A DNA stretch of 40,966 nt from a virus (lineage: Duplodnaviria > Caudoviricetes): IMG/VR virus record IMGVR_UViG_3300012942_000078, positions 1 through 40,966 of that record; one strand, given 5' to 3'. Shown here piece after piece: positions 100 through 40,940 of the stretch. The notes beneath the pieces were generated by a model that was not told where the DNA came from, searched no databases, and saw only the letters and a list, made by a program, of their open reading frames with translations. The position numbers and the translations under genes were made by a program. Within the stretch, counting starts at the first letter, position 1, and the number at the start of each line of letters is the position of its first letter.

Positions 100-123
100 T
101 GGGGGATCGTCTAACGGTAGGAC
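100..123 (+). tRNA. Truncated 5' fragment of tRNA-Gln; probable attL core
   Basis: TGGGGGATCGTCTAACGGTAGGAC resembles the 5' acceptor strand + D-arm of alphaproteobacterial tRNA-Gln; the sequence then breaks into AT-rich non-tRNA DNA with no anticodon or T-arm. Confidence 0.65.
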
Positions 124-3358: not shown

Positions 3359-4048
3359 TTAAACAGCTAGGGTGGATTGCCGATGCGCCGCATCGAGGCG
3401 CCAACAGGCAATGTCAAAATATTTGGCCTCGACCTCGATACCGACGAAGCGGCGGCCTTGGCTGGCGGCGGCAATGCCGGTTGTTCCCGATCCCATGTAC
3501 GGATCACAGATGACTTGAGCATCGGCGCAGAAACCGATGCACCATTCCATGACTGAGATGGGCTTTTGAAATGGGTGAGCGCTGCTGGCGTGAGGCTCAA
3601 ATCCCGCCTCCATTGCAGCCGAGCTACCAGCGAAGGTCTTTTCCATCATGTAGATGCCGCGCCCCTTTGATAGCCACGCGACTTCACCATCCGCGAGGAA
3701 TGTCCCATAGGCATGGGGGCGCCGCTTCGCCCAGACCAAAAGTGATCCAGGCCCAAGGTGCTGCATGAAATTGTTGCACCCGAAGATCACCTGAACTCTG
3801 CCCGCTTGAAGCAGGTGAGACGGGTCGAACGGCGCATCGTCGCCTTTAATTTGTCCGTGATGTGCACCGCCACGGCCATTATGGCCGCGCGCCGTGTTAC
3901 CACCGCTGAAGCGTTTGCTGCTGCCGCTATGCTTGATGCCGTATGGCGGATCAGTCACGATCGCATCAACCCCGGCGAGCGTTGGCAGTATCTCGCGGCA
4001 GTCCCCGAGATAGAGCGTGGCATTCCCGATGTGTTCGACCCGGCTCAT
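3359..4048 (-). CDS. Beta-class N6A/N4C DNA methyltransferase
   Basis: LYLGDC, TDPPYG, HPFQKP, DPYMGSGTT motifs. Confidence 0.9.
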   Translation of the reverse strand: MSRVEHIGNATLYLGDCREILPTLAGVDAIVTDPPYGIKHSGSSKRFSGGNTARGHNGRGGAHHGQIKGDDAPFDPSHLLQAGRVQVIFGCNNFMQHLGPGSLLVWAKRRPHAYGTFLADGEVAWLSKGRGIYMMEKTFAGSSAAMEAGFEPHASSAHPFQKPISVMEWCIGFCADAQVICDPYMGSGTTGIAAASQGRRFVGIEVEAKYFDIACWRLDAAHRQSTLAV

Positions 4049-4061
4049 AAAACTGTTCTCT

Positions 4062-4208
4062 TCAAAGAAGCAGGCCGAGGCCGGCGAAGGCCGCAACGGT
4101 GACGGCGGCAAGCAGGAAGGCCGCCCGCCAGGAAATACCGGCTGACCACCACGCGGCGGCGAACAGCAGCCAGACCAGAAGCACGAGAACGGCGGCGGTG
4201 GTGCTCAT
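4062..4208 (-). CDS. 48-aa hydrophobic 2-TM peptide (not in the ORF track)
   Basis: MSTTAAVLVLLVWLLFAAAWWSAGISWRAAFLLAAVTVAAFAGLGLLL*, ATGA-coupled to the endolysin stop. Confidence 0.6.
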   Translation of the reverse strand: MSTTAAVLVLLVWLLFAAAWWSAGISWRAAFLLAAVTVAAFAGLGLLL

Positions 4209-5333: not shown

Positions 5334-6404
5334 TTAGGCGGCTTCCAACGCCGCCAGGCGTGTTTCAAACACGGCATCGCGCGCGTCGAGTTCTTTGATC
5401 GCAGCCATGATGAGCGGAATATACTCTTCCTTCATTACAAGGCTGTTCTCCCCATCGGATGAGGCTGCAGCAGGCCAATGTTCTGCTGCGTCTTCATAAA
5501 ACAGAAATGCCCGCTTCTCCCGCTCATCTGGATCATCAATATATCGACCAAGGGATGTCTCATGGGCGGCGATGATAGAAGTGGCACCAGCAATTTGTTC
5601 GATATCTCTCTTCTTGCCCCGTTCCGAAATTGACCCCCAGGACGTTGCTCCCACAGCCAAAGCCATGCCACCACTGTCGCCAGAAATCACGTTGAACGAG
5701 TTGAGGCTGCGCAGGAATGTATTATTGGAATTGAAGTCAATATCGAGCGAGCCAGTGTCACCGGCCCCAGAATTGCGGGCAATATGAAGTGCAATATTTG
5801 ATGTCGAAGACGTGATAGATACCAGCCCTTCAACGACATTACCGCTGAACACTGCGCGCGATACCGTCATGGTCCCGATTATTGTCGGGGTGTGGATACC
5901 ATCAGAATCCCACGTCACGCCGTCCGGGCCAATGAGAGAACCCGAGAGCGTCGGGCTATCTGCCCGGACCACATCGCCAGTGCCGGTTGAATTGTCAGTC
6001 AGCAGGTCGGCCAGAACGTCCGCCGGCGCCTTTTTCACCCAGATACCGGTGTCCCCGACCAGCATGTCACCATCGCCCGGCGCATCGTCACCCATCATCT
6101 CCGCGATGGAGAGAATGGGGCCGTTGAGATATTCCAGCCACCGGACCGTGGTTTCCGCCAGCACGCGGCTGTCGGGAATGATCAGAACCGTATAGGCCGC
6201 ATCATCCGATGTTTCGCCGCCCCAATTCTCAACCAGCGTTGCGGTGCCCGCGTCAGCGTCGAGCGAGGCGATGGTGCCGCTGGCGCCGCCCTGCTGGAAA
6301 ATCCAGCCAGCGCGGAACAGCGAAACCGATACCCCGGCGAAGGTCACGGTCTTGCTGCCCGCCGTGGCTGCGGCCGTGCCATCATTGATATAGCCGTTGG
6401 CCAT
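5334..6404 (-). CDS. Tail fibre/spike with C-terminal S74-type intramolecular chaperone
   Basis: Fibre-like N-terminus; SERGKKRDI cleavage-like motif; C-terminal IPLIMAAIKELD..RLAALE coiled coil. Confidence 0.8.
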   Translation of the reverse strand: MANGYINDGTAAATAGSKTVTFAGVSVSLFRAGWIFQQGGASGTIASLDADAGTATLVENWGGETSDDAAYTVLIIPDSRVLAETTVRWLEYLNGPILSIAEMMGDDAPGDGDMLVGDTGIWVKKAPADVLADLLTDNSTGTGDVVRADSPTLSGSLIGPDGVTWDSDGIHTPTIIGTMTVSRAVFSGNVVEGLVSITSSTSNIALHIARNSGAGDTGSLDIDFNSNNTFLRSLNSFNVISGDSGGMALAVGATSWGSISERGKKRDIEQIAGATSIIAAHETSLGRYIDDPDEREKRAFLFYEDAAEHWPAAASSDGENSLVMKEEYIPLIMAAIKELDARDAVFETRLAALEAA

Positions 6405-27050: not shown

Positions 27051-27791
27051 TTATGTTGCGTTGTGGTGGGCCATTATGGCTTCACCGATGATTTGCGGGA
27101 TTTCGGGGACGACAGCGTTTCCGAGCCGCTCGGTTCGACGCCGGCGGTCCACATAATCGGAAAACCCATCGCCCACTCGAGCAGATCGACAGGCGGATTC
27201 CAGCCATACACTTTCGCGATTGCGGTTATACGCGCGCTGTATCTGCCCTGGCTCAATGTAGTGTCGGCGAAGCCCCATCCCCGCTTCCCCATCGACTTGG
27301 TGGGGCGTGGCAAGAAGATAAAGTCTGTCTCCTTCGAATGGGGCTCCAACGGAGGAAGCGCGTAAGCAATGCCATTCTGCGTCATACCCGATCTCGGCCA
27401 GCCCGCAGAGAATGCGGTCCAGCCCTCGATGAAGCAGCGCTGCTGAGTTTTCCAGGATCGCGACTTTGGGTCCCACGTCGCTAATAATTCGCAGGTACTC
27501 GAACCATAGGCCTGATCGCTCGCCATCAAGGCCTTTGCCAGTTCCGGCGGGGCTGATGTCCTGGCAGGGGAAGCCGCCGCAGATGACATTGGGAACAATT
27601 CCATCTGCTCTAAGGCGCTCAGCGGTGATGGACCGCACATCGTCGTAGCAGGGCACACCAGGCCAATGCTTGGCGAGGACGGCGCGGGCGTGCGCCTCGA
27701 TCGCGCAGAACGCGACGGTGCGCATCCCGGCTCTTTCGAGTCCGAGGCTGAAACCGCCGATGCCGCTAAAGAGGTCGAGGACATTCACCAA
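27051..27791 (-). CDS. C5-cytosine DNA methyltransferase, alpha polypeptide (motifs I-VIII, X)
   Basis: DLFSGIGG, GGFPCQD, ENS, LGNAVVP. Confidence 0.9.
   Translation of the reverse strand: MVNVLDLFSGIGGFSLGLERAGMRTVAFCAIEAHARAVLAKHWPGVPCYDDVRSITAERLRADGIVPNVICGGFPCQDISPAGTGKGLDGERSGLWFEYLRIISDVGPKVAILENSAALLHRGLDRILCGLAEIGYDAEWHCLRASSVGAPFEGDRLYLLATPHQVDGEAGMGLRRHYIEPGQIQRAYNRNRESVWLESACRSARVGDGFSDYVDRRRRTERLGNAVVPEIPQIIGEAIMAHHNAT
27074..27604 (-). CDS. Nested alternative-frame beta polypeptide carrying motif IX
   Basis: Ends in LLEWAMGFPIMWT; frame is open 27784-27074; start uncertain. Confidence 0.7.
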   Translation of the reverse strand: MELFPMSSAAASPARTSAPPELAKALMASDQAYGSSTCELLATWDPKSRSWKTQQRCFIEGWTAFSAGWPRSGMTQNGIAYALPPLEPHSKETDFIFLPRPTKSMGKRGWGFADTTLSQGRYSARITAIAKVYGWNPPVDLLEWAMGFPIMWTAGVEPSGSETLSSPKSRKSSVKP

Positions 27792-27992: not shown

Positions 27993-28334
27993 CTAGCGCG
28001 CGCTGCGAAGATGGCGGGCGAGTTCGGCAACCAGCAGCGCGCCAGCCCGGACTTGATTGCGATGGAGAGATTTCGGCTTCCACCATTCGGCGTGCCAAGG
28101 CCAATACCTCATAGCCGGCGGATCATTCGGCATTGTCCAGCCTGTCAGCGCGTAGCAGCCAGCAGCCCGCGCCATTTCCCCGGTGCGGTGAGCGTCATCA
28201 TGCGCTGGGGTCCAGCCTTCCGCCTCGACTTGGCGCACTCGCTCAGCAGCAATGTCCGCTAGGGCGAACACGCTCTCCTGATCCAGTTCCATCAGCCGCT
28301 TCACCGGGCCTTCAAGGACAGTCGGAATTGTCAT
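27993..28334 (-). CDS. Ead/Ea22-associated-type domain protein
   Basis: AAER.RQ...EGW...HDD.H..GEMARAA..YA, WPW...WWKP. Confidence 0.8.
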   Translation of the reverse strand: MTIPTVLEGPVKRLMELDQESVFALADIAAERVRQVEAEGWTPAHDDAHRTGEMARAAGCYALTGWTMPNDPPAMRYWPWHAEWWKPKSLHRNQVRAGALLVAELARHLRSAR

Positions 28335-28843: not shown

Positions 28844-29437
28844 CTATCTCTGTTTCTTGCGCATGAGCGGGTTGGTCCGCGCATACACGGTGCTGGGTTT
28901 GATCTTCAGATGCGGAAAACAGCGCACGATTTCCTCGGCCGTCATCTTCTTGCGGCGCATCGCCGCCATCGTGCGCGCATCGGCGGCCGAGACCTTGGGC
29001 TTGCGGCCCAGCCACATGCCCTTGCGCCGGCACTCATCCATGCCGCGCTTCGTACGTACAATGATCTGGTCGCGTTCGAACTCGGCCATGGCGCCGGTTA
29101 TGGCCAGCATCAGCTTGCCGCTGGGCGTGGTGTTATCCAGGTGCGGCTCGGTCAGGCTGCGCCATTCCACGCCCTCGGTCGCCAGATCGCGCAGGATGCC
29201 TAGTATCTGGGGAAGTTCGCGGCCCATGCGCGAGAGCGAATGAAACAACAGCGTGTCGCCGCATTCGAGAAACTTCATCATCAGCGCGAACATGGGCCGC
29301 TTGGCGTTCACGGCGCTGATTTTCTCGACGAAGAGGTTGCTGACACCGGCCGCTTTCAGCGCGGTCAACTGCACATCAAGGCTCTGATCCTCGGTGGAGA
29401 CGCGGGCATAGCCGATGGTCCGCGCCGTCGCAGGCAT
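28844..29437 (-). CDS. Serine resolvase/invertase
   Basis: IGYARVSTEDQ, EKISA, GD.L, MAEFER...RTKRG, GRKP, C-terminal HTH. Confidence 0.92.
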   Translation of the reverse strand: MPATARTIGYARVSTEDQSLDVQLTALKAAGVSNLFVEKISAVNAKRPMFALMMKFLECGDTLLFHSLSRMGRELPQILGILRDLATEGVEWRSLTEPHLDNTTPSGKLMLAITGAMAEFERDQIIVRTKRGMDECRRKGMWLGRKPKVSAADARTMAAMRRKKMTAEEIVRCFPHLKIKPSTVYARTNPLMRKKQR

Positions 29438-30051: not shown

Positions 30052-31925
30052 TTCTTTTTCCGCTTTGGCGCGGGTTTCTTGACGGCCTTGACCTTCTTCG
30101 CGCCGGGGCCGGTGTAGCCGGCGGGCCGCAATTCGCCCGGCAGCCATTTGGCCGGCGGGCAATTCTCGCGGGCATAGGCGACCAGGTCGGCTTTGGCGCT
30201 GTCCTCGCTGAAATCGCCCTCGGCCTTGCCGAACACGTCGATGATGGCCGAAAGCGCCATGGCCTTCGGGGCGCGGTCGAAATAGGCACCGGCGTCGAAG
30301 CGCTTGTGAATCAGCGGCACCATCACCTTGGGATCGACGGCATCGACCAGCGCCGCCACATCGCCGTCCGTCATCGCATGGCGCTCGGCGTTGAAAGCGT
30401 CGAACTTGAGGGATGCCGCCACCACCTGGGCGAACAAGGCCTCGCGCTGCTGCGGCTTCATCTTCAGGAACAGCGAGAGGTTCTTGGCGAAACCCTCGGC
30501 GCTGGACAGTTTCAGCGTATTGACGCCCATGCCGAAATGGCGAAGCCGCACCGGCAACCCGTCGCTGTTGACGGCGAAGGCAGCCAGTGCCGCCGCCATG
30601 GCCAGATTGAAATTGCCCGCCAGCGCCATGGCCGCCGCCTCGGTCAGCGTCACCGCCAGGTCGGAGGCCTGGGCGTTGGAAATCCGGGGTGCCGGCGCCG
30701 CTTCCGGCTCCTGCGCCGTGCCGCCGTCCTTTGCCGATCCCTTGGCGGCCGGCAGCGCTGCCGCCTCTTCCTTTTCTTCCGGCGGAATGATGACACCCGC
30801 CGCGATGCCAAGGCGGCCTTCCCGCGTGATGAAGACCACACAACCGCTCTTGGCCTTCTGGCGCGGGGTAAAGGCCCGCAGCGCGGCGGCTTCATGGATG
30901 CCGTCGCGCTCGCTGGTCAGCGTATATAAGGTGTCATCGTCCAATTCTTCCTGGTCCAGCCGCTGCGCGATCGCCGCCAGCCGCGCCTTCTCGGCCACGG
31001 TAAGGTCGGCCTTGGGTTCCGAACGGCCATAATGGCGCCAGGCGGCGGGCATGGCGTCGGCGGGCTTGGCCCAGGACCAGCCTTCCAGGCTGGTCAGCCG
31101 CAGGGCTTCGGCCTCCAGTTTCTCCGTCGCCATCATCGCCGCCAGTGCGGCATCGGAAACGCCATGAATGCCGTTGAACAGGTCTTCATGGATGACGCCG
31201 CCGCGCGCGCGATAGGCGTCCAGCCCGACAAACTCCACAAAGCGCGCGCCATCGCCCTGATCGGGCACCAGGGCGGCGCGTACCGCGGCGGGGTAAAGAT
31301 TGTTGGACTTGCGCAGGCGCTGAAAAAGCTTGAACTGATCCTTCTTATCGATCAGGCGGGTGAATTCCTGCACCGTATCCTGTCCGATTGCCTCCCCGCG
31401 CCAGGCCTTCAGGATGTCGGGGTGGATCGCGCCCAGGGCGATGCGCTGGCGCACCACCCGCTTGTCGATGCCGTAATGGGCGGCGATGGCCGCTTCGTCC
31501 ATGCCACCGCTGCGCAATTCGGCGAAGGCCTCGAACTGGTCGATGGGATGCAGCGGCAGGCGGTTCAATTGCTCCGTCAGCGATTCGTGCAGCGCCTCCT
31601 GCGGCGTCAGGTTATCAATCAGGAAGACTGGCACTGTCTCCCGCGCGCCGGCGCGGTCGCGCAAATTCATCTGGCTGGCCAGCAGGCGCCGCTCGCCCAC
31701 ATGCACCCAGTAATCGCCGCCGCCATCCTCGACCGGGAAGGCGCGCAAGGGCTGCAACACGCCCTGGTCATGGATCGACTGCTGCAATTCGGGCAGCGAG
31801 ATTTCATGCCCGCTCTTGCGCGGGTTGGCGGCGAACAGCGGATGCTGGTGGCCGGGCCGCAGCCTTGCGATCGGAAACGCTTCGTCGAAGACGGCAAGAT
31901 GCTGCGCCATGTCAGGCTGCTCCAT
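30048..31925 (-). CDS. Large ParB/Spo0J-family protein
   Basis: NPRK, L..SI...GVLQPL, GERRLLA, LHPIDQFEAF, HTH. Confidence 0.88.
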   Translation of the reverse strand: MEQPDMAQHLAVFDEAFPIARLRPGHQHPLFAANPRKSGHEISLPELQQSIHDQGVLQPLRAFPVEDGGGDYWVHVGERRLLASQMNLRDRAGARETVPVFLIDNLTPQEALHESLTEQLNRLPLHPIDQFEAFAELRSGGMDEAAIAAHYGIDKRVVRQRIALGAIHPDILKAWRGEAIGQDTVQEFTRLIDKKDQFKLFQRLRKSNNLYPAAVRAALVPDQGDGARFVEFVGLDAYRARGGVIHEDLFNGIHGVSDAALAAMMATEKLEAEALRLTSLEGWSWAKPADAMPAAWRHYGRSEPKADLTVAEKARLAAIAQRLDQEELDDDTLYTLTSERDGIHEAAALRAFTPRQKAKSGCVVFITREGRLGIAAGVIIPPEEKEEAAALPAAKGSAKDGGTAQEPEAAPAPRISNAQASDLAVTLTEAAAMALAGNFNLAMAAALAAFAVNSDGLPVRLRHFGMGVNTLKLSSAEGFAKNLSLFLKMKPQQREALFAQVVAASLKFDAFNAERHAMTDGDVAALVDAVDPKVMVPLIHKRFDAGAYFDRAPKAMALSAIIDVFGKAEGDFSEDSAKADLVAYARENCPPAKWLPGELRPAGYTGPGAKKVKAVKKPAPKRKKK

Positions 31926-32592
31926 GGGGGTTGAGGGTGGGCAGGAACCGCCTGTCGGGTTCCTTGACGATCAGGGGCGAGCCGCTGTGACCGGCTTCCC
32001 AGATGAAAATGGCATAGTCGGTGACGCCGCCTTTCAGCTTCGGCCCGGCATAGCCGTCGCGGTGCATCATCTTCCATCGCGATTTGGGGATGATCACGCG
32101 CGCCAGCGGAATGCGGGTCTGCTGCCAGATCGGCGCGCCCTTGCGGATGTCGCCAGCGCCGGTGTCGTCGATCAGGTGTTGCGGCGCCAGATAGCGCAGC
32201 CGCAGGATCATGGCGACGTAATCGTAATTGGCGCAGGCTTTCAGGATGAAGGCGTCGGCCCGGTCGAACGGCGGGTTGGTGAAGCAGGCGATGCGGCGGC
32301 GCTGCGCCTCGCTCTTGGTGCCGAAGTCCGGCGCCAGGAAGTCCTGCACATGACTGTCGGGACAGCCGCGGTCGATCAAATCGCTGGCGATGACCTTGAA
32401 GCCGGCATCGCGCAGCGGGATCACCAGGGCGCCGTCGCCGCAGGCCGGTTCGAAGATGAAATCGAAGCGCTTCAGCCGCCCGCCCTCGACCGCCAGAAGG
32501 CAGGGCACGGCTTCATCGCCGCTGCGATGGAAGTTCTGCGGATGGGCATTGGCGCGGTCGCGCCGTTCATTCTCGACACTGTGGAAGTTCAT
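31912..32592 (-). CDS. Adenine-type DNA methyltransferase (NPPF)
   Basis: EPACGDG, ASDLIDRG, DFL, TNPPF. Confidence 0.82.
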   Translation of the reverse strand: MNFHSVENERRDRANAHPQNFHRSGDEAVPCLLAVEGGRLKRFDFIFEPACGDGALVIPLRDAGFKVIASDLIDRGCPDSHVQDFLAPDFGTKSEAQRRRIACFTNPPFDRADAFILKACANYDYVAMILRLRYLAPQHLIDDTGAGDIRKGAPIWQQTRIPLARVIIPKSRWKMMHRDGYAGPKLKGGVTDYAIFIWEAGHSGSPLIVKEPDRRFLPTLNPHGAA

Positions 32593-34916: not shown

Positions 34917-34940
34917 TGGACGATATAACGTCCATGTCAA
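34917..34940 (-). promoter_or_regulatory. Leftward lytic promoter-operator
   Basis: TTGACA + TGGACG-N6-CGTCCA inverted repeat; identical copy at 36997-37020. Confidence 0.8.
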
Positions 34941-35007: not shown

Positions 35008-35628
35008 ATGAACGATGACGACCTCCGCGCAGCTCTTCGGGCGTTTATGGCCCGGAAGAAGATCAAATCACTAAGTGCATGGTCCACGGCCGCAGGAAAA
35101 AACAGGCACTTTGTCGAGCAATATCTTAACGGCAGTGCCAAAAACATTTCCTTCAGCGCGGTCGCGGATTTGGCCGCGGCGCAGGACGGCACCATTTTCG
35201 ATATTCTTGGAATGAAATCACGCCCGCCTAGCGGCATGGTGCAGATCCCGTTCCTGGCCATCACCGTCGAACTGGGCGGGCGCATCGTGACGGGGGCAGA
35301 TAAAGGCCGGCCGCCAATGCTGATGCCCCGCTCCTGGCTGGAACGTCATGCCTTCGGCGAGGCCGGGCGGCTGTTCATGTGGCAGATGAAGGTGGCCTAT
35401 GACGAAGGCCATGCCGGCGACCTGATCGCCATCGATCTGCGCACCGTCAACCCGCGCCGCATGCCCGGCTATTATGCCATCGCCAATGACGGCACCGTGA
35501 TGGTGCGCAAGATTCAGCCCCTGGCCGGCGATACCCTGCGCATCATGGCCGAAGGCGCGCCTTTCGATACATCCTCGGCCCAGGTGAATATCATCGGTCG
35601 CGCCGTCTGGCGCGGAGGTGACATTTAG
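35008..35628 (+). CDS. CI-like repressor (HTH + degenerate S24 domain)
   Basis: N-terminal HTH; GDLIAID, GYYAI, IIGRAVW S24 fold. Confidence 0.82.
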   Translation: MNDDDLRAALRAFMARKKIKSLSAWSTAAGKNRHFVEQYLNGSAKNISFSAVADLAAAQDGTIFDILGMKSRPPSGMVQIPFLAITVELGGRIVTGADKGRPPMLMPRSWLERHAFGEAGRLFMWQMKVAYDEGHAGDLIAIDLRTVNPRRMPGYYAIANDGTVMVRKIQPLAGDTLRIMAEGAPFDTSSAQVNIIGRAVWRGGDI

Positions 35629-35634
35629 CAGTGA

Positions 35635-35901
35635 CTAACGCATTGCCCGGCCGATGGCTTCATAACTGCCTTTGCACGTCGCGAAACCGTCATCCCAGCC
35701 TTGCTTGTAGATTTCGTCCTTGCCGTAGCGCAGAACATCTTTCGTAAATTTATAATATGGATTTCCCGCAGCGACTTTGCCCGAGTTACATCCACCGGCA
35801 TACCCTTCTCGATAGGCGGGCGGCCCTGCGGGAGCCTGATTGGCATTAATCGCGCAACCTCCCAAGATGGCTAAAAACAGCATCAGCACAAAAGGCTTCA
35901 T
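35635..35901 (-). CDS. Small lipoprotein
   Basis: MKPFVLMLFLAILGGC lipobox; repeated Y..G[YW]..G..[ST]. Confidence 0.8.
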   Translation of the reverse strand: MKPFVLMLFLAILGGCAINANQAPAGPPAYREGYAGGCNSGKVAAGNPYYKFTKDVLRYGKDEIYKQGWDDGFATCKGSYEAIGRAMR

Positions 35902-36383
35902 CCTCCCTCCACAGTATGGCCAGACGATTCCTGAACTTCTAATTGGCGATGCATTACGGCGGAAAGACTGTTTCCCGGTGGCGCCAGCACCAACACTTTC
36001 AGATCAAGATAATCATCATTTTCATAGATGGAATATAATTCTGCTGCGATAGCGATATTTCTGCTGATAAAATTTTCGTGGACGAAGGAAGCGATGGAGG
36101 CGCCCAGATATCCGATGTGCCATTTGCGCTGCCATAACCAAACCAGGACCCTTCCCTCAATAACGCCATCAACGGCAATTGCATTCGGATCCACCGGATT
36201 ATTCGGCTCGGGCCGCAATTCAACACCATAGCGGCGGTTGCCTCTCTCCGCGCTTTCCGCCGCTCGGCAGAAGCGGCGTACGCGCCTCTTTCTATGTTGG
36301 ACACCCATAACAGGAATCGTTGTTGAGGCGATGACCCAATCGCCGGGCGGTCGATACCGGTCAAGGCAATATTTCCGGCCCAT
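35898..36383 (-). CDS. HIRAN-domain protein
   Basis: VMGVQHR, LRPEPNNPVDPNAIAV, HIGYL. Confidence 0.8.
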   Translation of the reverse strand: MGRKYCLDRYRPPGDWVIASTTIPVMGVQHRKRRVRRFCRAAESAERGNRRYGVELRPEPNNPVDPNAIAVDGVIEGRVLVWLWQRKWHIGYLGASIASFVHENFISRNIAIAAELYSIYENDDYLDLKVLVLAPPGNSLSAVMHRQLEVQESSGHTVEGG

Positions 36384-36400: not shown

Positions 36401-36907
36401 TCAGAACCGGAACGCCAGCCCCGTCGTGACGATATCGACATCGTTCCAGGCGCTCTGGCGATGATAGCTGGCGCGCAGATCGATGCGTTTGGTCAGCCGC
36501 AGCTCAAAGCCGCCGCCGGCGCGCCAGCCGGCGCGGCTGACGCTGATCGTGCCGAGACTTCCCGCATCGGCGCTTTCAGTGGCATAGCCGCTGCCGCCCG
36601 ACACGAATAGCGAGAAGCGCCGCCCCAGCGGCAGGAACGTCAGCGCATCGACATAGGCGTTGTTGACCGTCACCCCGCTGACACTGGAAAGGGAATCGCC
36701 GATCTCCAGGCCGAAGTAACGGCTGGGCCGCCATCCGGCGGCCACATTCCCACCGTTCAGGATGATCCCGGAGGATGAGGCGTGCGCGTAATCGACCGCG
36801 CCATACCACCAGCGCGCGGCATAGGGATCGCGCTGAACCTGCGCCGCCGCCGGTACCGTCGCCACAAGCAAAAACACCGCGCCGAAGCGCCAGCCGCGTA
36901 GCCCCAT
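36401..36907 (-). CDS. Outer-membrane beta-barrel (OmpA/Ail/Lom-like)
   Basis: Signal peptide, YFGLEIG, AGGGFEL, C-terminal GLAFRF. Confidence 0.82.
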   Translation of the reverse strand: MGLRGWRFGAVFLLVATVPAAAQVQRDPYAARWWYGAVDYAHASSSGIILNGGNVAAGWRPSRYFGLEIGDSLSSVSGVTVNNAYVDALTFLPLGRRFSLFVSGGSGYATESADAGSLGTISVSRAGWRAGGGFELRLTKRIDLRASYHRQSAWNDVDIVTTGLAFRF

Positions 36908-36996: not shown

Positions 36997-37026
36997 TTGA
37001 CATGGACGTTATATCGTCCATATATC
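36997..37026 (+). promoter_or_regulatory. Rightward early promoter-operator
   Basis: TTGACATGGACGTTATATCGTCCA then TATATC. Confidence 0.8.
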
Positions 37027-37055: not shown

Positions 37056-37172
37056 ATGTCCGGCCCTCCATCACCGCGGAGGGCTGGCGTCATGGACCTG
37101 GTTGTCATCGGAGTTTTGGCCTTCCTGGCCGATATCGTCGGCGATATCGCCGCCATGCCGGTGCCGGCATGA
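37056..37172 (+). CDS. 38-aa hydrophobic peptide (not in the ORF track)
   Basis: GGAGG upstream; VMDLVVIGVLAFLA; ATGA-coupled to the next gene. Confidence 0.45.
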   Translation: MSGPPSPRRAGVMDLVVIGVLAFLADIVGDIAAMPVPA

Positions 37173-37429
37173 GAACCGCACCCGACACCGGCGAAAGCAG
37201 CGCCAGCATCAACCGCCGCGCCGATGACGCAGCATGGCCTTTCGTCCGCGCCGAACTGGAAAGCGGCGCCACGCTGCTTCGCATTCCCAAACTGCGACGG
37301 GCTTATCCGGATCGGGGAAACGGCCCTTATGGCCGGGGCCTGAACGATGTCCGTGTTCGCAAGCTGGAACGCGAAGGCATCCTTCGCCATATCGGCGTGG
37401 ACCGCTATGCGCTGGCGGCGGCGCCATGA
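37169..37429 (+). CDS. Hypothetical protein (winged-helix-like C-terminus)
   Basis: VRKLEREGILRHIGVDRYAL. Confidence 0.65.
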   Translation: MRTAPDTGESSASINRRADDAAWPFVRAELESGATLLRIPKLRRAYPDRGNGPYGRGLNDVRVRKLEREGILRHIGVDRYALAAAP

Positions 37430-37587
37430 CCAACACCGTCCGCCTCTACTGGGCGCAGATCGCGCGGATGGAAGCCGACCGCCGTGCCGAAGAGCGGCGC
37501 ATGGCCCGGCGCGAAATGTTCAATACGCTCGCCCTGGTGGCGGTGCTGGCGGTCATCATCCTGATATCGCTGCGGGTGCCGGGATGA
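37426..37587 (+). CDS. Small protein with C-terminal TM
   Basis: ATGA coupling; LALVAVLAVIILISL. Confidence 0.6.
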   Translation: MTNTVRLYWAQIARMEADRRAEERRMARREMFNTLALVAVLAVIILISLRVPG

Positions 37588-37721
37588 CGCCGTTGGGCCG
37601 CGAAGACCTGGACGCGATCGCGGCCCATGGCACGCGCGGAGGCGCGTTGCCGCCCGGCTTCTGGATCGTGGCCAGTCTTGCCGCCCTGGCGCTCGCCGCC
37701 TTCGGCGCGGTGCTGCTGTGA
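37584..37721 (+). CDS. Small protein with C-terminal TM
   Basis: ATGA coupling; FWIVASLAALALAAFGAVLL. Confidence 0.6.
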   Translation: MTPLGREDLDAIAAHGTRGGALPPGFWIVASLAALALAAFGAVLL

Positions 37722-37957
37722 GCCCGGCCGCGCATAGCGATTATGGCGTTCATCGCCACCCGTCGGACCGGATCATGCCGCGCACCCAGCGCGAGGCCGG
37801 CATCGACTGGCGCGGCTGGGAGGGCCGGCTGCACCCACAGCGCCCCTGGCTGTCGATCATCGCCATCACCCTGGCCGCGACGGCGGGCAGCTTTTTCCTG
37901 CTGGCACTTTGCGCCTGGGGCCGTGACGCGCTGCTGGCGGCGGGATGGATTCAATAG
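37718..37957 (+). CDS. Small protein with C-terminal TM
   Basis: GTGA coupling; WLSIIAITLAATAGSFFLLAL. Confidence 0.6.
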   Translation: MSPAAHSDYGVHRHPSDRIMPRTQREAGIDWRGWEGRLHPQRPWLSIIAITLAATAGSFFLLALCAWGRDALLAAGWIQ

Positions 37958-37966
37958 GGGCGGGAC

Positions 37967-38521
37967 ATGAAGGCACAGACACGCGGCGGCGCCGCCATCG
38001 AAACCGGCGTCAACCTGGTGGTGGGATTCGGCCTCTCCTGGGCGATCAACTGTTGGTGCCTGCCGCTGTTCGGGATGCAGCCCAGCCTTGGCGCGCTCTG
38101 GGGCCTGGGCGGCATCTTCACCGCCGCCAGCATCATGCGCCAATTCTGCCTGCGCCGCCTGTTCGAATGGCTGCGCATCCGCAAGGCCCCGCCGGAATTC
38201 CTCTATATCGCCCAGGAACTGGCGGCCGAACGCAATCGCCAGATCATAAGCGAGGGCTACGACCTCGCCCATGACGATCAGTATCACCGGGGCGAACTGC
38301 AACGCGCCGCCGCCTGGTATGCCCTGGCGGGCGCGCGCTGGACAAATGCCACGCTGCCGCCCTGCGACCTTGGGCTCTTCGCCAGCAACACCTATGGCTG
38401 GCCCTGGGACCGCTCGTTCTGGCGCCCCACCACGGCGCGCCGCGACCTGGTGAAGGCCGGCGCCCTGATCATCGCCGCTATCGGCCGCATCGATCGCGCC
38501 GCCCGCCAGGTGCGCAAATGA
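37967..38521 (+). CDS. 2-TM domain fused to Ead/Ea22-associated-type domain
   Basis: ETGVNLVVGF...PLFG...RRLFE then AAERNRQ..EGY...HDD...WPW..WRP. Confidence 0.75.
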   Translation: MKAQTRGGAAIETGVNLVVGFGLSWAINCWCLPLFGMQPSLGALWGLGGIFTAASIMRQFCLRRLFEWLRIRKAPPEFLYIAQELAAERNRQIISEGYDLAHDDQYHRGELQRAAAWYALAGARWTNATLPPCDLGLFASNTYGWPWDRSFWRPTTARRDLVKAGALIIAAIGRIDRAARQVRK

Positions 38522-38778
38522 AGGACCGCTTCGGCCGTTCCATACAGGTCGGCTGGCCTGAGCATCACATCCTCTGGATCGAGGCGGCGATGACATTGCC
38601 CCGCGCAGAGCGCAATGTCGCATTCAACGACATCGCGGAGATGACGGGGCGCGGTTACGCCTCGGTCTATTACAAGTATCGGGACATCCTGCGCGAACGC
38701 GAAGCCGCCAAGCGACGCAGCGATCTCGCCGCGCAATCACGGGCGCACCAGGAAGCCGCCGCATCGGTGCGCGCATGA
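38518..38778 (+). CDS. Small HTH/Myb-like protein
   Basis: W....L...DIAEMTGRGYASV. Confidence 0.65.
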   Translation: MKDRFGRSIQVGWPEHHILWIEAAMTLPRAERNVAFNDIAEMTGRGYASVYYKYRDILREREAAKRRSDLAAQSRAHQEAAASVRA

Positions 38779-39065
38779 CCGGCACCAGCGACGATTACGT
38801 GAAGGTCCAGGGCAAGGCGCGGCATGTCCGCGACAATTCTGTCCTGTTCTCGGTCGGCGACGGCGTTTCGCGCGGCGCCTGGATACCGCGCAGCCTGCTC
38901 CATGGTGCCGACGATCTGCAATTGCGTGACCGCGCCCACCAGATCAACCGCACCGGCACCAATGTCGGCACGCCGATGGTGCTGCGCATCCGCCGCTGGA
39001 AGGCCGAGGAAGTCGGCTTCACGGGCGATGCCGATGATCAGACCGCCGATCTGTTCCCAACCTGA
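38775..39065 (+). CDS. Small beta-rich hypothetical phage protein
   Basis: AWIPRSLL...RWKAEEVGF. Confidence 0.7.
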   Translation: MTGTSDDYVKVQGKARHVRDNSVLFSVGDGVSRGAWIPRSLLHGADDLQLRDRAHQINRTGTNVGTPMVLRIRRWKAEEVGFTGDADDQTADLFPT

Positions 39066-39088: not shown

Positions 39089-39961
39089 ATGACATCACTT
39101 ACAAAAACCAATCCCAATGCACCGGCCATAATCGCGACCGGGGCCCAACAGATTTCCATTCTCGCAGGCACGGTATTGGGCGGCTTTCACTTCGGCGCGG
39201 ACACGGCGGTCGATATCGCCCCCGACCTTTTGCAGCCGGGCCGCGATTACGCCGTCACCGTGGCGGACGGCCGGATCAGCGTGACCGAACTGTCCTCACC
39301 TACCCTGGCCGACGATGTGCTGGGCGGCTTCCACTTCGCGCCGGGCGGCAACGCCGCCGCGCGCAATGGCGGCGACACCACCCCGGCCATCAATCCCTAT
39401 TCCATCTGGGACCGGAACTTCCGCCCGGCCTGCGATGATCCGCGCGGCATGACGCGGGTGGAACTGGAGGGTGGCAAAGCCTTCTGGTGCGACATCTACC
39501 TGACGGCGGCGGAACACAGCCTGGGCACCAGCCGCTTCGGTGCCACCATCGCGGACGGCGATGACATCCCGCAGAAGGCCGGTGACAAGGAGTTCGACAG
39601 CTTCGATTATGAAGCCGCCAAGGCCGTCCTGGCGCATCACGGCAAGGGCCTGCTGAACATCTATGAGTTCTTCGCCGCCGCCATCGGTGTGACCGAGAAA
39701 TCGGCGCCGCGCCGCGATCCCAAGACCACCAAGCTTGACGCTCCGCGAACGAGCAAGTGGGGCGTGATGCAGGCCACCGGCAACATGTGGGTCTGGGGCA
39801 CGGACGGTGATCCCGACATGCCGCGCGCGTCTATCTTCGGCGGCTCCTGGCTCTACGGCGGCTACGCGGGATCGCGTTACGCGTATCTCGGCTACTGGCC
39901 GGACTGCTCGCGCGACAGTTTCGGCGCGCGCGGGCGCAGTGACCACCTGCAACTTGGATAG
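39089..39961 (+). CDS. Mtd-like C-type-lectin-fold protein; DGR target 1
   Basis: GGFHFAPG, INPYSIWD..FRP..DPRGM, FWCDIYL, TSKWGV.QA.G..W.W, FGARG..DHL as in Bordetella BPP-1 Mtd; AAAGGAG RBS. Confidence 0.9.
   Translation: MTSLTKTNPNAPAIIATGAQQISILAGTVLGGFHFGADTAVDIAPDLLQPGRDYAVTVADGRISVTELSSPTLADDVLGGFHFAPGGNAAARNGGDTTPAINPYSIWDRNFRPACDDPRGMTRVELEGGKAFWCDIYLTAAEHSLGTSRFGATIADGDDIPQKAGDKEFDSFDYEAAKAVLAHHGKGLLNIYEFFAAAIGVTEKSAPRRDPKTTKLDAPRTSKWGVMQATGNMWVWGTDGDPDMPRASIFGGSWLYGGYAGSRYAYLGYWPDCSRDSFGARGRSDHLQLG
39817..39961 (+). repeat. DGR variable region VR1 with G/C tract and IMH-like end
   Basis: 145-bp near-identical repeat of 40777-40921, 11 mismatches, none synonymous. Confidence 0.85.
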
Positions 39962-39980
39962 AAGCCGCGACAGCGGCTTC
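39961..39980 (+). other. DGR target-recognition hairpin 1
   Basis: GAAGCCGC-GACA-GCGGCTTC starting at the G of the stop codon. Confidence 0.8.
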
Positions 39981-40003
39981 CGCAACCTTTGAACAGGGAA
40001 ACC

Positions 40004-40921
40004 ATGACCATGAAAAAGCGCACCACCAAGAAAGCGCCCGCCGCCAGAAAGGCGCCACTCATCAAGCGTGACAAGGCCAGCCCGGCAATCAGGATCGTCG
40101 GCGGCGATGCCAAGGTGAAGGCAGGCGTCACGTTCCGTGGCGCCCCCATCAAGAAGGACCTGGCCGTCGCGGCACCTGCAGGCGGCTATATGCCGGGTTG
40201 CGACTATGTCGTGACCATCGTGCGCGGCAAAGCCGTGGCGCAGCCGATGGCATCGGCCAGCATACCGGCGAACGCCATTGGCGGCTTTCATTTCGCGCCT
40301 GGCGGGAACGCGGCGGCGGAGGCGGGCGGCGATGGCGTGCCGGCGATCAACCCGCATTCCATCTGGGATCGCAACTTCCGGCCGGCCTGCAAAGACCCGC
40401 GCGGCATGACCCTGGTGGACGTGCCCGGCAAGGGCCGTATCTGGTGCGATATCTACCTGCTCGGCAAAGACCACCTGGAACAGGGCACCAGCAGGTTCGG
40501 CGTCACCATCGCGGACGGGACCGACCGCCCGCAGAACCCCGCCGGCGGCACCTTCGCGAAGTTCGATTATGCGGCGGCGTGCGCGGTGATGAAACACCAC
40601 GACAAGAAATTGCTGGGCGCCGAGGAATTCTTCACCGCCACCATCGGCGTCATCGAAAAGACCGCCGCGACGGGGGAGCCGAAATCCACCGGCCTGGACG
40701 CGCCACGGACCAGCCGGTGGGGCGTGATGCAGGCGACGGGCAACATGTGGGTCTGGGGCACGGACGGCCATCCCACCATGCCGCGCGCGTCTCTCTTCGG
40801 CGGCTCCTGGCTCGACGGCGGCTGCGCGGGATCGCGTTGCGCGAGTCTCGTCTACTGGCCGGACTACTCGCTCGACTGTTTCGGCGCGCGCGGGCGCAGT
40901 GACCACCTGCAACTTGCATAG
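40004..40921 (+). CDS. Mtd-like C-type-lectin-fold protein; DGR target 2
   Basis: Paralog of 39089-39961 with a basic N-terminal extension; start 40004 or 40010. Confidence 0.9.
   Translation: MTMKKRTTKKAPAARKAPLIKRDKASPAIRIVGGDAKVKAGVTFRGAPIKKDLAVAAPAGGYMPGCDYVVTIVRGKAVAQPMASASIPANAIGGFHFAPGGNAAAEAGGDGVPAINPHSIWDRNFRPACKDPRGMTLVDVPGKGRIWCDIYLLGKDHLEQGTSRFGVTIADGTDRPQNPAGGTFAKFDYAAACAVMKHHDKKLLGAEEFFTATIGVIEKTAATGEPKSTGLDAPRTSRWGVMQATGNMWVWGTDGHPTMPRASLFGGSWLDGGCAGSRCASLVYWPDYSLDCFGARGRSDHLQLA
40777..40921 (+). repeat. DGR variable region VR2 with G/C tract and IMH-like end
   Basis: Copy of VR1 at offset 960 bp. Confidence 0.85.
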
Positions 40922-40940
40922 CCGCCGCGACAGCGGCGGC
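40921..40940 (+). other. DGR target-recognition hairpin 2
   Basis: GCCGCCGC-GACA-GCGGCGGC. Confidence 0.8.

What the first reader, a model, noticed from the sequence alone, without database searches (positions are those of the whole stretch)
39089..40921. DGR targets are N-terminally truncated Mtd homologs in the early operon, not the tail module
Both proteins follow BPP-1 Mtd (recalled from memory) from the beta-sandwich onward (LTKTNPNAPA / LIKRDKASPA ~ FIKADKSAVA; GRDYAV ~ GTDYAI) but lack its ~50-residue N-terminal beta-prism and any signal peptide. They lie ~30 kb from the tail genes, on the opposite strand, downstream of the repressor-controlled early promoter, in a siphovirus that has its own fibre and tip genes. 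Inference: hypervariable ligand-binding proteins with a non-virion, intracellular role (e.g. binding host defence or regulatory proteins), or heterotrimers combining two variable surfaces. This would be an unusual use of a tropism-switching cassette and is the best candidate for an undescribed system here.
Basis: partly seen in the sequence, partly recalled or inferred. Interest (0 to 1): 0.85.

Follow-up and report, generated by a model that had tools for sequence, protein, structure and literature searches.

The report
Phage DGR diversifying likely non-virion binders
This soil phage genome carries, among its early-type genes, two shortened copies of a known tail-tip receptor-binding protein whose binding faces are rewritten by a targeted-mutation retroelement, and because they have lost the parts that likely attach them to the virus particle they probably act inside the infected cell as a variable set of binders, most likely against host defence proteins (untested).

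Summary
Both ORFs are Mtd from residue ~55 onward (PDB E 4e-48; model TM 0.89 to 1YU0). The contig ends four codons into avd, so no template repeat (TR) or reverse transcriptase (RT) is in the window. Contigs of run X1 supply avd, TR and RT, and all 10 VR1/VR2 differences fall on TR adenines. The proteins belong to one clade of ~300-aa targets, found mostly in prophages of Hyphomicrobiales. The clade lacks both the beta-prism and the trimer-bracing beta2-beta3 loop, and its residue composition has shifted from fibre-like to cytoplasm-like. In 24 of 24 phage genomes, with contractile, non-contractile and probably podovirus tails, the genes lie among early or replication genes. No docking partner was found. 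One prophage rewrites both a tail-type Mtd and a remote early short copy from a single TR. Best reading (0.5): early cytoplasmic binders of variable host proteins, probably defence factors. Partner, expression and location are untested. The heterotrimer idea is doubtful. The scan reported this layout before in five other genomes; my literature searches found no description of it.

The parts
34917..34940 (-). Leftward (cro-side) promoter/operator: TTGACA plus palindrome, exact inverted copy of 36997-37020
   Evidence: I20, 24 nt, 100%
35008..35628 (+). CI-like repressor
   Evidence: phrog_4 E 8.9e-5
36997..37026 (+). Rightward early promoter/operator that likely drives the cassette operon (inferred)
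   Evidence: no + strand terminator found downstream
37169..39065 (+). Seven small, mostly translationally coupled early-type ORFs, including a DUF7220 protein (37967-38521)
39089..39961 (+). Target 1: short Mtd (beta-sandwich plus C-type lectin fold; no beta-prism, no beta2-beta3 loop), net charge -10 outside the VR
39824..39947 (+). VR1 and its GC-rich 3' end (stretch matched by the TR contig of run X1)
   Evidence: 13 differences, the 10 printed all read A in the contig
39961..39980 (+). Hairpin after VR1: 8-bp stem, GACA loop (fits the GRNA loop of phage DGRs)
   Evidence: PMC3240598 Fig. 5 legend
40004..40921 (+). Target 2: short Mtd, 58% identical to target 1, Lys-rich N-terminus, net charge +13
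40784..40907 (+). VR2
   Evidence: 13 of 13 differences from the partly inferred TR lie at A
40921..40940 (+). Hairpin after VR2: 8-bp GC stem, GACA loop
40955..40966 (+). First four codons of avd; the rest of avd, TR and RT lie beyond the contig end
   Evidence: same junction in L001; X1 contigs of 473 and 3184 nt cover avd, TR and RT of L001

Best explanation
The two genes are targets of a BPP-1-type diversity-generating retroelement whose avd, template and reverse transcriptase lie just past the contig end, and their products are likely made early after induction or infection and likely stay in the cytoplasm as stand-alone, probably non-trimeric binders that would stick to and neutralise variable host proteins, most likely anti-phage defence factors. 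Shown: DGR anatomy, adenine-specific rewriting of both VRs from one TR, the Mtd sandwich plus lectin fold, loss of the beta-prism and beta2-beta3 loop, placement in the repressor-flanked early arm, and purifying selection. Inferred: repression in the lysogen and co-expression of targets and mutator on induction, so that progeny carry new VR pairs. Each incoming genome would then express its own variant in the newly infected cell, so selection acts in cis without the phenotypic mixing that a tail protein suffers. Two or three targets per cassette would widen the repertoire. The partner class (defence protein) is a guess from timing and location, not from any binding evidence.
For: Placement: 24 of 24 genomes (23 near-complete records plus the window) have the gene in early or replication arms, 12 opposite to and 12 upstream of the structural strand; nearest labelled tail gene 13.8-37.7 kb in the 19 measurable. 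Bacterial-genome and control loci: short-loop type 0 of 33 with a tail marker within 6 kb and 28 of 33 with an early marker; long-loop type 6 of 17 tail, 0 of 17 early, 11 neither; 33 loci could not be classified. Carriers: 9 of 23 with tail sheath (two families), several siphovirus types, one record with podovirus-type genes. Only Mtd (24), RT (22) and avd (21) are widely shared. A 52-sequence beta-prism HMM and BPP-1 fibre bbp9 find nothing in six frames of these genomes, while the controls are positive. One clade of 29 (support 0.96): 24 have 17 or fewer residues before the sandwich; 104 of 113 outside have more than 40. The loop holding Mtd Tyr322/Tyr333, which braces the neighbouring protomer (PMC2408619), is cut from 32 to 14 residues in 23 of 29. 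Charged-minus-polar index: clade median +5.0 (range -1.6 to 10.8), long relatives -11.8 (-18.3 to -3.6), GC-matched subset -10.7; same-phage early enzymes +10, tail proteins -5.3. L274/L282: one TR in a tail module rewrites a tail-type Mtd (11 of 14 mismatches at A) and a short early copy 26 kb away (13 of 13), so early placement follows the target, not the RT. dN/dS 0.20-0.27 between close relatives; Cys depleted at AAY codons, 3 versus 22.9 expected.
Against: No expression, proteomic, localisation or binding data, and no partner identified. The clade is one evolutionary event, so the composition shift and loop loss are not independent counts, and the 24 genomes share ancestry of the cassette. 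The composition index overlaps 'structural' proteins as a whole (median +2.7). The beta-sandwich, which also promotes Mtd trimers (PMC6328139), is retained. Mtd binds with micromolar Kd and needs avidity (PMC2408619), which a monomer would lack. Cys depletion also appears in the small tail-type control (0 versus 3.0, 7 VRs) and could reflect an oxidising setting. The few in-clade fusions to ParB, ProQ and HTH look like read-through or recombination accidents and were not counted as support. Nine short proteins fall outside the clade and their contexts were not checked.
Confidence: 0.5

Rival explanations
1. Virion receptor-binding or decoration protein, made early, that docks on tail or capsid by a route not visible in sequence; an ordinary tropism switch in an unusual place.
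For: Fold, VR layout and cassette order match BPP-1. PHROG calls it a tail protein. The beta-sandwich is kept. An Mtd gene sits next to capsid genes in S-CBS3, so docking sites vary. Viral DGR targets are mostly annotated as tail proteins (PMC8144416 section 9).
Against: No anchor, no shared partner across myo-, sipho- and probable podovirus carriers, never found in a late operon. Composition unlike tail-type Mtd. One phage keeps a true tail-type Mtd as well. This window has its own likely fibre.
Confidence: 0.17
2. Soluble protein released at lysis that masks receptors on debris or neighbouring cells, or acts as a decoy.
For: It descends from a surface-binding protein, has no anchor, and Cys is depleted on the binding face.
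Against: Early rather than late placement. A released protein is a shared good, weakly tied to the genome that encodes the variant. The VRs differ from the tail VR where both exist.
Confidence: 0.1
3. Prophage-encoded defence sensor or inhibitor, expressed in the lysogen from an internal promoter and aimed at superinfecting phages.
For: Cytoplasmic DGR-diversified lectin-fold sensors are proposed for multicellular bacteria (PMC10907252), and DGR-based immunity has been hypothesised (PMC10053308).
Against: No effector domain or conserved effector neighbour (50 different upstream gene clusters in 62 loci). It sits in tightly coupled operons behind repressor-type operators. No promoter was found upstream of target 1.
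Confidence: 0.1
4. Hitch-hiking or vestigial cassette parked in a dispensable region, with the targets serving only as retrohoming substrates.
For: Highly variable neighbours. RT is absent from 8 of 72 fetched stretches, some of them cut by contig ends. This window's VRs hold more Cys than the family (2 of 10 versus 3 of 360 AAY codons).
Against: dN/dS 0.20-0.27, intact well-folding proteins (pLDDT 97), non-random VR residues, remote copies kept, and two copies kept without RT in G013.
Confidence: 0.08
5. Early-made internal virion protein that is packaged and injected with the DNA (like T4 internal proteins, recalled).
For: It would reconcile early placement, a cytoplasmic target and variable short N-termini.
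Against: No conserved N-terminal targeting motif. Carriers have unrelated head types. A 300-residue two-domain fold is large for passage through a tail.
Confidence: 0.05

Closest known systems
Bordetella phage BPP-1 DGR (mtd-avd-TR-brt) and Mtd, PDB 1YU0-1YU4
   Same: Cassette order, adenine-specific VR rewriting, 8-bp hairpin with GRNA loop, beta-sandwich plus C-type lectin fold (TM 0.89, about 39% identity).
   Different: BPP-1 mtd ends the late operon directly after fibre gene bbp9 and has the beta-prism and beta2-beta3 loop. Here both are absent, there are two targets, and the genes lie in the early arm opposite the late genes.
Fibre-fused Mtd relatives (S-CBS1/3, P12026, DUF2793-, collagen- or T7-fibre-fused proteins)
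   Same: Same C-terminal two-domain unit at 32-45% identity.
   Different: They carry long N-terminal extensions, some with fibre-type Pfam domains. Where a context could be labelled they lie in structural modules, and their composition is Ser/Thr/Asn-rich.
Monomeric cellular DGR proteins TvpA, TaqVP, AvpA; clade-5 cytoplasmic antigen-sensor candidates
   Same: Stand-alone lectin-fold variable proteins; some predicted cytoplasmic (PMC6328139, PMC10907252).
   Different: Those described in the passages read are cellular and not Mtd-derived; the clade-5 ones are tied to effector or NTPase systems. These are phage early genes with no effector domain.
Multi-target DGRs (Wu et al. 2018, PMC5758913)
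   Same: Two targets from one TR (13% of DGRs in that survey).
   Different: That survey's 12 Mtd-domain targets are described as BPP-1-sized or longer and read as tail proteins; no truncated early class appears in the passages read.

Membership tests
Diversity-generating retroelement (BPP-1 type) | TR-VR pair differing at TR adenines | tested here: met
   X1 contig versus VR1: 10 printed of 13 differences are all A; 10 of 10 VR1/VR2 differences lie at TR A; family 651 of 692. The TR is outside the window.
Diversity-generating retroelement (BPP-1 type) | DGR reverse transcriptase after TR | tested here: met
   The 3184-nt X1 contig runs from the TR over the whole L001 RT frame (183 differences, 8 compensating 1-nt gaps); the family RT is phrog_1423. 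Catalytic residues of this copy were not read.
Diversity-generating retroelement (BPP-1 type) | avd accessory gene | tested here: met
   First four codons in the window; a 473-nt X1 contig covers L001 avd; family is phrog_3206.
Diversity-generating retroelement (BPP-1 type) | GC-rich VR end and downstream hairpin | tested here: met
   8-bp stems with GACA loop after both stops.
Diversity-generating retroelement (BPP-1 type) | Ongoing retrohoming | not testable with these tools
   Only contigs of one run are held; no raw reads or RNA.
Mtd tail receptor-binding protein | beta-sandwich plus C-type lectin fold with C-terminal VR | tested here: met
Mtd tail receptor-binding protein | N-terminal beta-prism or other fibre anchor | tested here: not met
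   Alignment starts at Mtd residue 55; prism HMM finds nothing in the window or 23 carrier genomes.
Mtd tail receptor-binding protein | beta2-beta3 loop (Tyr322, Tyr333) bracing the neighbouring protomer | tested here: not met
   Mtd 313-333 is replaced by about 3 residues.
Mtd tail receptor-binding protein | Encoded in the late or tail module beside its fibre | tested here: not met
Mtd tail receptor-binding protein | Obligate trimer, present in virions, determines tropism | not testable with these tools
   Needs biochemistry and virion proteomics.
Phage anti-defence proteins | Binds and inhibits a host defence system | not testable with these tools
   No partner known; inferred from early cytoplasmic placement only.

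The most novel reading that the evidence does not exclude
Temperate phages of soil Alphaproteobacteria have turned a tail-tip adhesin into an intracellular antibody-like repertoire: a DGR that pre-generates early cytoplasmic inhibitors against whatever defence proteins the next host carries, that is, adaptive counter-defence by targeted hypermutation.
Probability: 0.33. Interest if true: 0.92.

Novelty: new variant of a known kind. Interest (0 to 1): 0.7.

Why it matters
Phage DGRs are taken to diversify virion receptor-binding proteins, and databases label this clade 'tail protein'. A widespread clade that has shed its anchor and trimer brace and moved into early operons would be, as far as my searches show, an undescribed use of phage hypermutation inside the cell. 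It would make a standing question testable: whether DGRs take part in defence and counter-defence. Cultured lysogens carrying it exist (Rhizobium, Mesorhizobium, Bradyrhizobium, Shinella). A small, possibly monomeric cytoplasmic lectin-fold scaffold with its own mutator could also be useful for binder engineering.

Tried and rejected
RT-motif and TR search inside the window: none; no terminal repeats, so not a closed circle. ARAGORN and Rfam found no tRNA for the tRNA-like remnant near 101-123. First structure model from 44 close relatives was poor (pLDDT 55.6) and was replaced by a 147-row alignment. Homotrimer prediction: no answer, score 0.01, no evidence either way. No RNA holder listed. 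No plasmid match and no cultured phage above 41% identity, so no published virion proteome could be checked. Split beta-prism or bbp9-like partner: not found. In-clade fusions to ParB, ProQ, HTH and a TSCPD-like protein were considered as Rosetta-stone evidence and set aside as single, probably accidental events. Acidic-basic pairing of the two targets is not general (2 of 26 pairs have a strongly basic member). Cys usage as a cytoplasm test does not discriminate: depleted in both sets, control only 7 VRs. A second tree to place L274 and P0359 was not obtained, so L274's membership of the clade rests on its short N-terminus, short loop and 48% identity. Literature searches found no description of truncated early-operon Mtd targets; the library lacks most subscription journals, and supplementary tables of the DGR surveys (Wu 2018, Roux 2021), which may list members, were not read.

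Full report
Observation. The window is a whole 40,966-bp contig of a temperate siphovirus-type phage: HK97-type head, non-contractile tail with Dit and central fibre, and lysis genes, all on the minus strand, plus a likely side fibre at 5334-6404 (ESM Atlas feature score 0.93 to S74 tail-fibre clusters, a lead only). The two ORFs hit Pfam mtd_2nd but not Mtd_N. Target 1 aligns to BPP-1 Mtd residues 55-380 (E 3.9e-48). An AlphaFold model from a 147-row alignment (pLDDT 97.4) matches 1YU0 at TM 0.89. Both genes lie on the plus strand, at the end of a run of coupled small ORFs that starts behind a TTGACA-plus-palindrome element at 36997-37020. An exact inverted copy of that element lies on the other side of the repressor-like gene. 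This is the layout of a lambdoid early switch (established knowledge); activity was not tested and the generic promoter scan did not call the site.

Is it a DGR? Not within the window: there is no RT motif and no third copy of the VR. The contig ends four codons into avd, at the same junction as relative L001, which continues avd-TR-RT. One public run holds the stretch (X1, soil metagenome; it may be the source sample, so it is not independent). Its contigs supply the missing part: 473 nt from the end of target 2 across avd, and 3184 nt that start with the TR and cover the whole L001 RT frame. That contig differs from VR1 at 13 places, and the 10 printed all read A. All 10 VR1/VR2 differences fall on TR adenines. 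Both stops are followed by an 8-bp hairpin with a GACA loop, which fits the GRNA-loop hairpin required in BPP-1 (PMC3240598, passages). I did not see this RT's catalytic residues.

The family. A protein search returned 1021 relatives of 159-508 aa; 117 of the 120 listed are 277-336 aa. Of 72 close viral loci, 64 have an RT, 37 show two targets and 35 show one. In the 44 loci that the trimmed analysis could parse, 651 of 692 TR-VR mismatches are at adenines. The untrimmed count over 98 of 112 targets was 1231 of 1562. Named hosts are mostly Hyphomicrobiales. No plasmid and no cultured phage above 41% identity carries it. In a FastTree tree of 142 sequences without the VR, the short forms make one clade of 29 (support 0.96). 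In it, 24 have at most 17 residues before the sandwich; 104 of the 113 outside have more than 40, and 9 outside are short. Long relatives include collagen, DUF2793, T7-fibre, PTR and Mtd_N fusions.

Placement. I took 42 of the 76 loci (the longer contigs) to their records and fetched 23: all 20 rated at least 90% complete plus three at 84-88%. In all 23 and in the window the gene lies among methylases, ParB-like genes, clamps, primases, HD phosphatases, repressors and integrases. Twelve of 24 are on the strand opposite the structural genes, often with the integrase downstream; 12 are on the same strand, upstream of replication and terminase genes. The nearest labelled tail gene is 13.8-37.7 kb away in the 19 measurable. 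Nine of 23 have a tail sheath (two families); others are siphoviruses of several kinds, and one record with two elements has podovirus-type genes beside the cassette. Beyond Mtd, RT and avd, no gene is shared by more than 15 of 24. A beta-prism HMM and BPP-1 fibre bbp9 find nothing in these genomes, although bbp9 homologues sit directly upstream of Mtd in six control loci. In an independent set of bacterial-genome and control loci, short-loop copies had a tail marker within 6 kb in 0 of 33 loci and an early marker in 28; long-loop copies 6 and 0 of 17; 33 loci could not be classified. BPP-1, P12026 and S-CBS3 all place mtd among structural genes.

Remodelling. Besides the beta-prism, the clade has lost the beta2-beta3 loop. 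In Mtd this loop gives Tyr322 and Tyr333 to the neighbouring protomer's binding site (PMC2408619, passages); the span shrinks from 32 residues to 14 in 23 of 29. Prism and sandwich promote Mtd's obligate trimer, while other DGR proteins are monomers (PMC6328139, passages). A BPP-1-like trimer or heterotrimer is therefore doubtful, though the sandwich remains. Composition has shifted: charged minus Ser/Thr/Asn/Gln is +5.0 in the clade and -11.8 in long relatives, with no overlap (-10.7 in a GC-matched subset). Early enzymes of the same phages score +10, tail proteins -5.3, and all structural proteins together +2.7. This is one lineage, so it counts once. The proteins are under purifying selection (dN/dS 0.20-0.27) and VR residues are non-random (Cys 3 versus 22.9 expected at 360 AAY codons).

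A natural control. One prophage contig (L274/L282) has a 484-aa tail-type Mtd with avd-TR-RT between baseplate and sheath genes, and a 317-aa short-loop copy 26 kb away between a methylase-like gene and a replication initiator. The same TR explains both VRs (11 of 14 and 13 of 13 mismatches at A). A phage with a diversified tail protein thus also keeps the short early form, and early placement there cannot be explained by the RT's needs. It is a single case and its tree position was not established.

Mechanism. The best-supported reading is an early cytoplasmic binder. On induction the repressor would release the operon, targets and mutator would be made together, and progeny would carry new VR pairs. 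Each infecting genome would then express its own pair at once, so selection is in cis. The likeliest useful partners at that time and place are variable host proteins that limit the phage, such as defence factors; this last step is a guess. The main difficulty is affinity: Mtd binds at micromolar Kd and relies on avidity (PMC2408619), so a monomer would need high early expression or tighter selection. Rivals are a virion protein with a hidden docking route (0.17), a lysis-released decoy (0.10), a lysogen defence sensor (0.10), a hitch-hiker (0.08) and an injected internal protein (0.05).

Novelty. It is a member of the BPP-1-type DGRs, but its targets fail three tested features of Mtd tail proteins. 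Surveys treat viral DGR targets as mostly tail proteins (PMC8144416, section 9 and passages; PMC5758913, passages). DGR-based immunity has been proposed for cells (PMC10053308, part 1 and passages; PMC10907252, passages). PMC11661182 (passages) added nothing on this clade. Eight searches found no account of it; subscription journals are mostly missing and supplements were not read. The scan's own notes report the same layout in five other genomes; these are not independent support. Not mentioned in the short notes shown, and tested here: recovery of this phage's missing TR and RT, the loop loss, the composition shift, tail-type independence and the dual-target control. Verdict: real, a new variant of a known kind, interest 0.7.

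Noticed in passing
window 36401-36907 (-) and 35898-36383 (-): A secreted-looking outer-membrane beta-barrel gene (PF13505, E 3e-9) and a HIRAN-like gene (E 8e-5, under cut-off) sit between the repressor and the rightward promoter; candidates for lysogenic conversion or superinfection exclusion.
   Followed up: partly
window 101-123: Looks like the 5' end of a tRNA (recalled resemblance) and may be an attachment-site remnant; ARAGORN and Rfam found nothing.
   Followed up: partly
window 39824-39947 and 40784-40907: This phage's VRs have Cys at 2 of 10 AAY codons against 3 of 360 in the family (Fisher p 0.006); they may be recent, not yet selected variants.
   Followed up: partly
L282:7482-8936 and L274:7965-8918: One TR rewrites both a tail-type Mtd and a short early-operon Mtd 26 kb away in the same prophage contig.
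   Followed up: yes
G013 (L021): A complete phage record keeps two short Mtd genes but has no RT, avd or TR.
   Followed up: partly
L245, L267: Three tandem short Mtd targets before avd.
   Followed up: no
P0359, P0268: Short, charged Mtd relatives outside the clade; P0359 also has a short loop, so it may be an independent loss of anchor and loop, or a long-branch artefact. Context unknown.
   Followed up: partly
window 40004-40070: Target 2 belongs to a rare basic subtype with a Lys-rich N-terminus (net +13; family median -10), paired with an acidic partner also in L010.
   Followed up: partly
L078:7835-8995: Synechococcus phage S-CBS3 has its Mtd homologue two genes after the major capsid gene, not in the tail module; possibly a head decoration.
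   Followed up: no
run X1, 3184-nt contig after the RT: The next ORF begins like a family also seen beside the cassette in L009; the integrase was not seen.
   Followed up: no
window 3359-4111, 27074-27784, 31912-32592, 28844-29437: Three DNA-methyltransferase-like genes, one inside the lysis module, and a resolvase/invertase gene.
   Followed up: no
window 37967-38521 and 27993-28334: Two copies of the same unknown domain (phrog_6628/9434), one fused to DUF7220, in opposite early arms.
   Followed up: no
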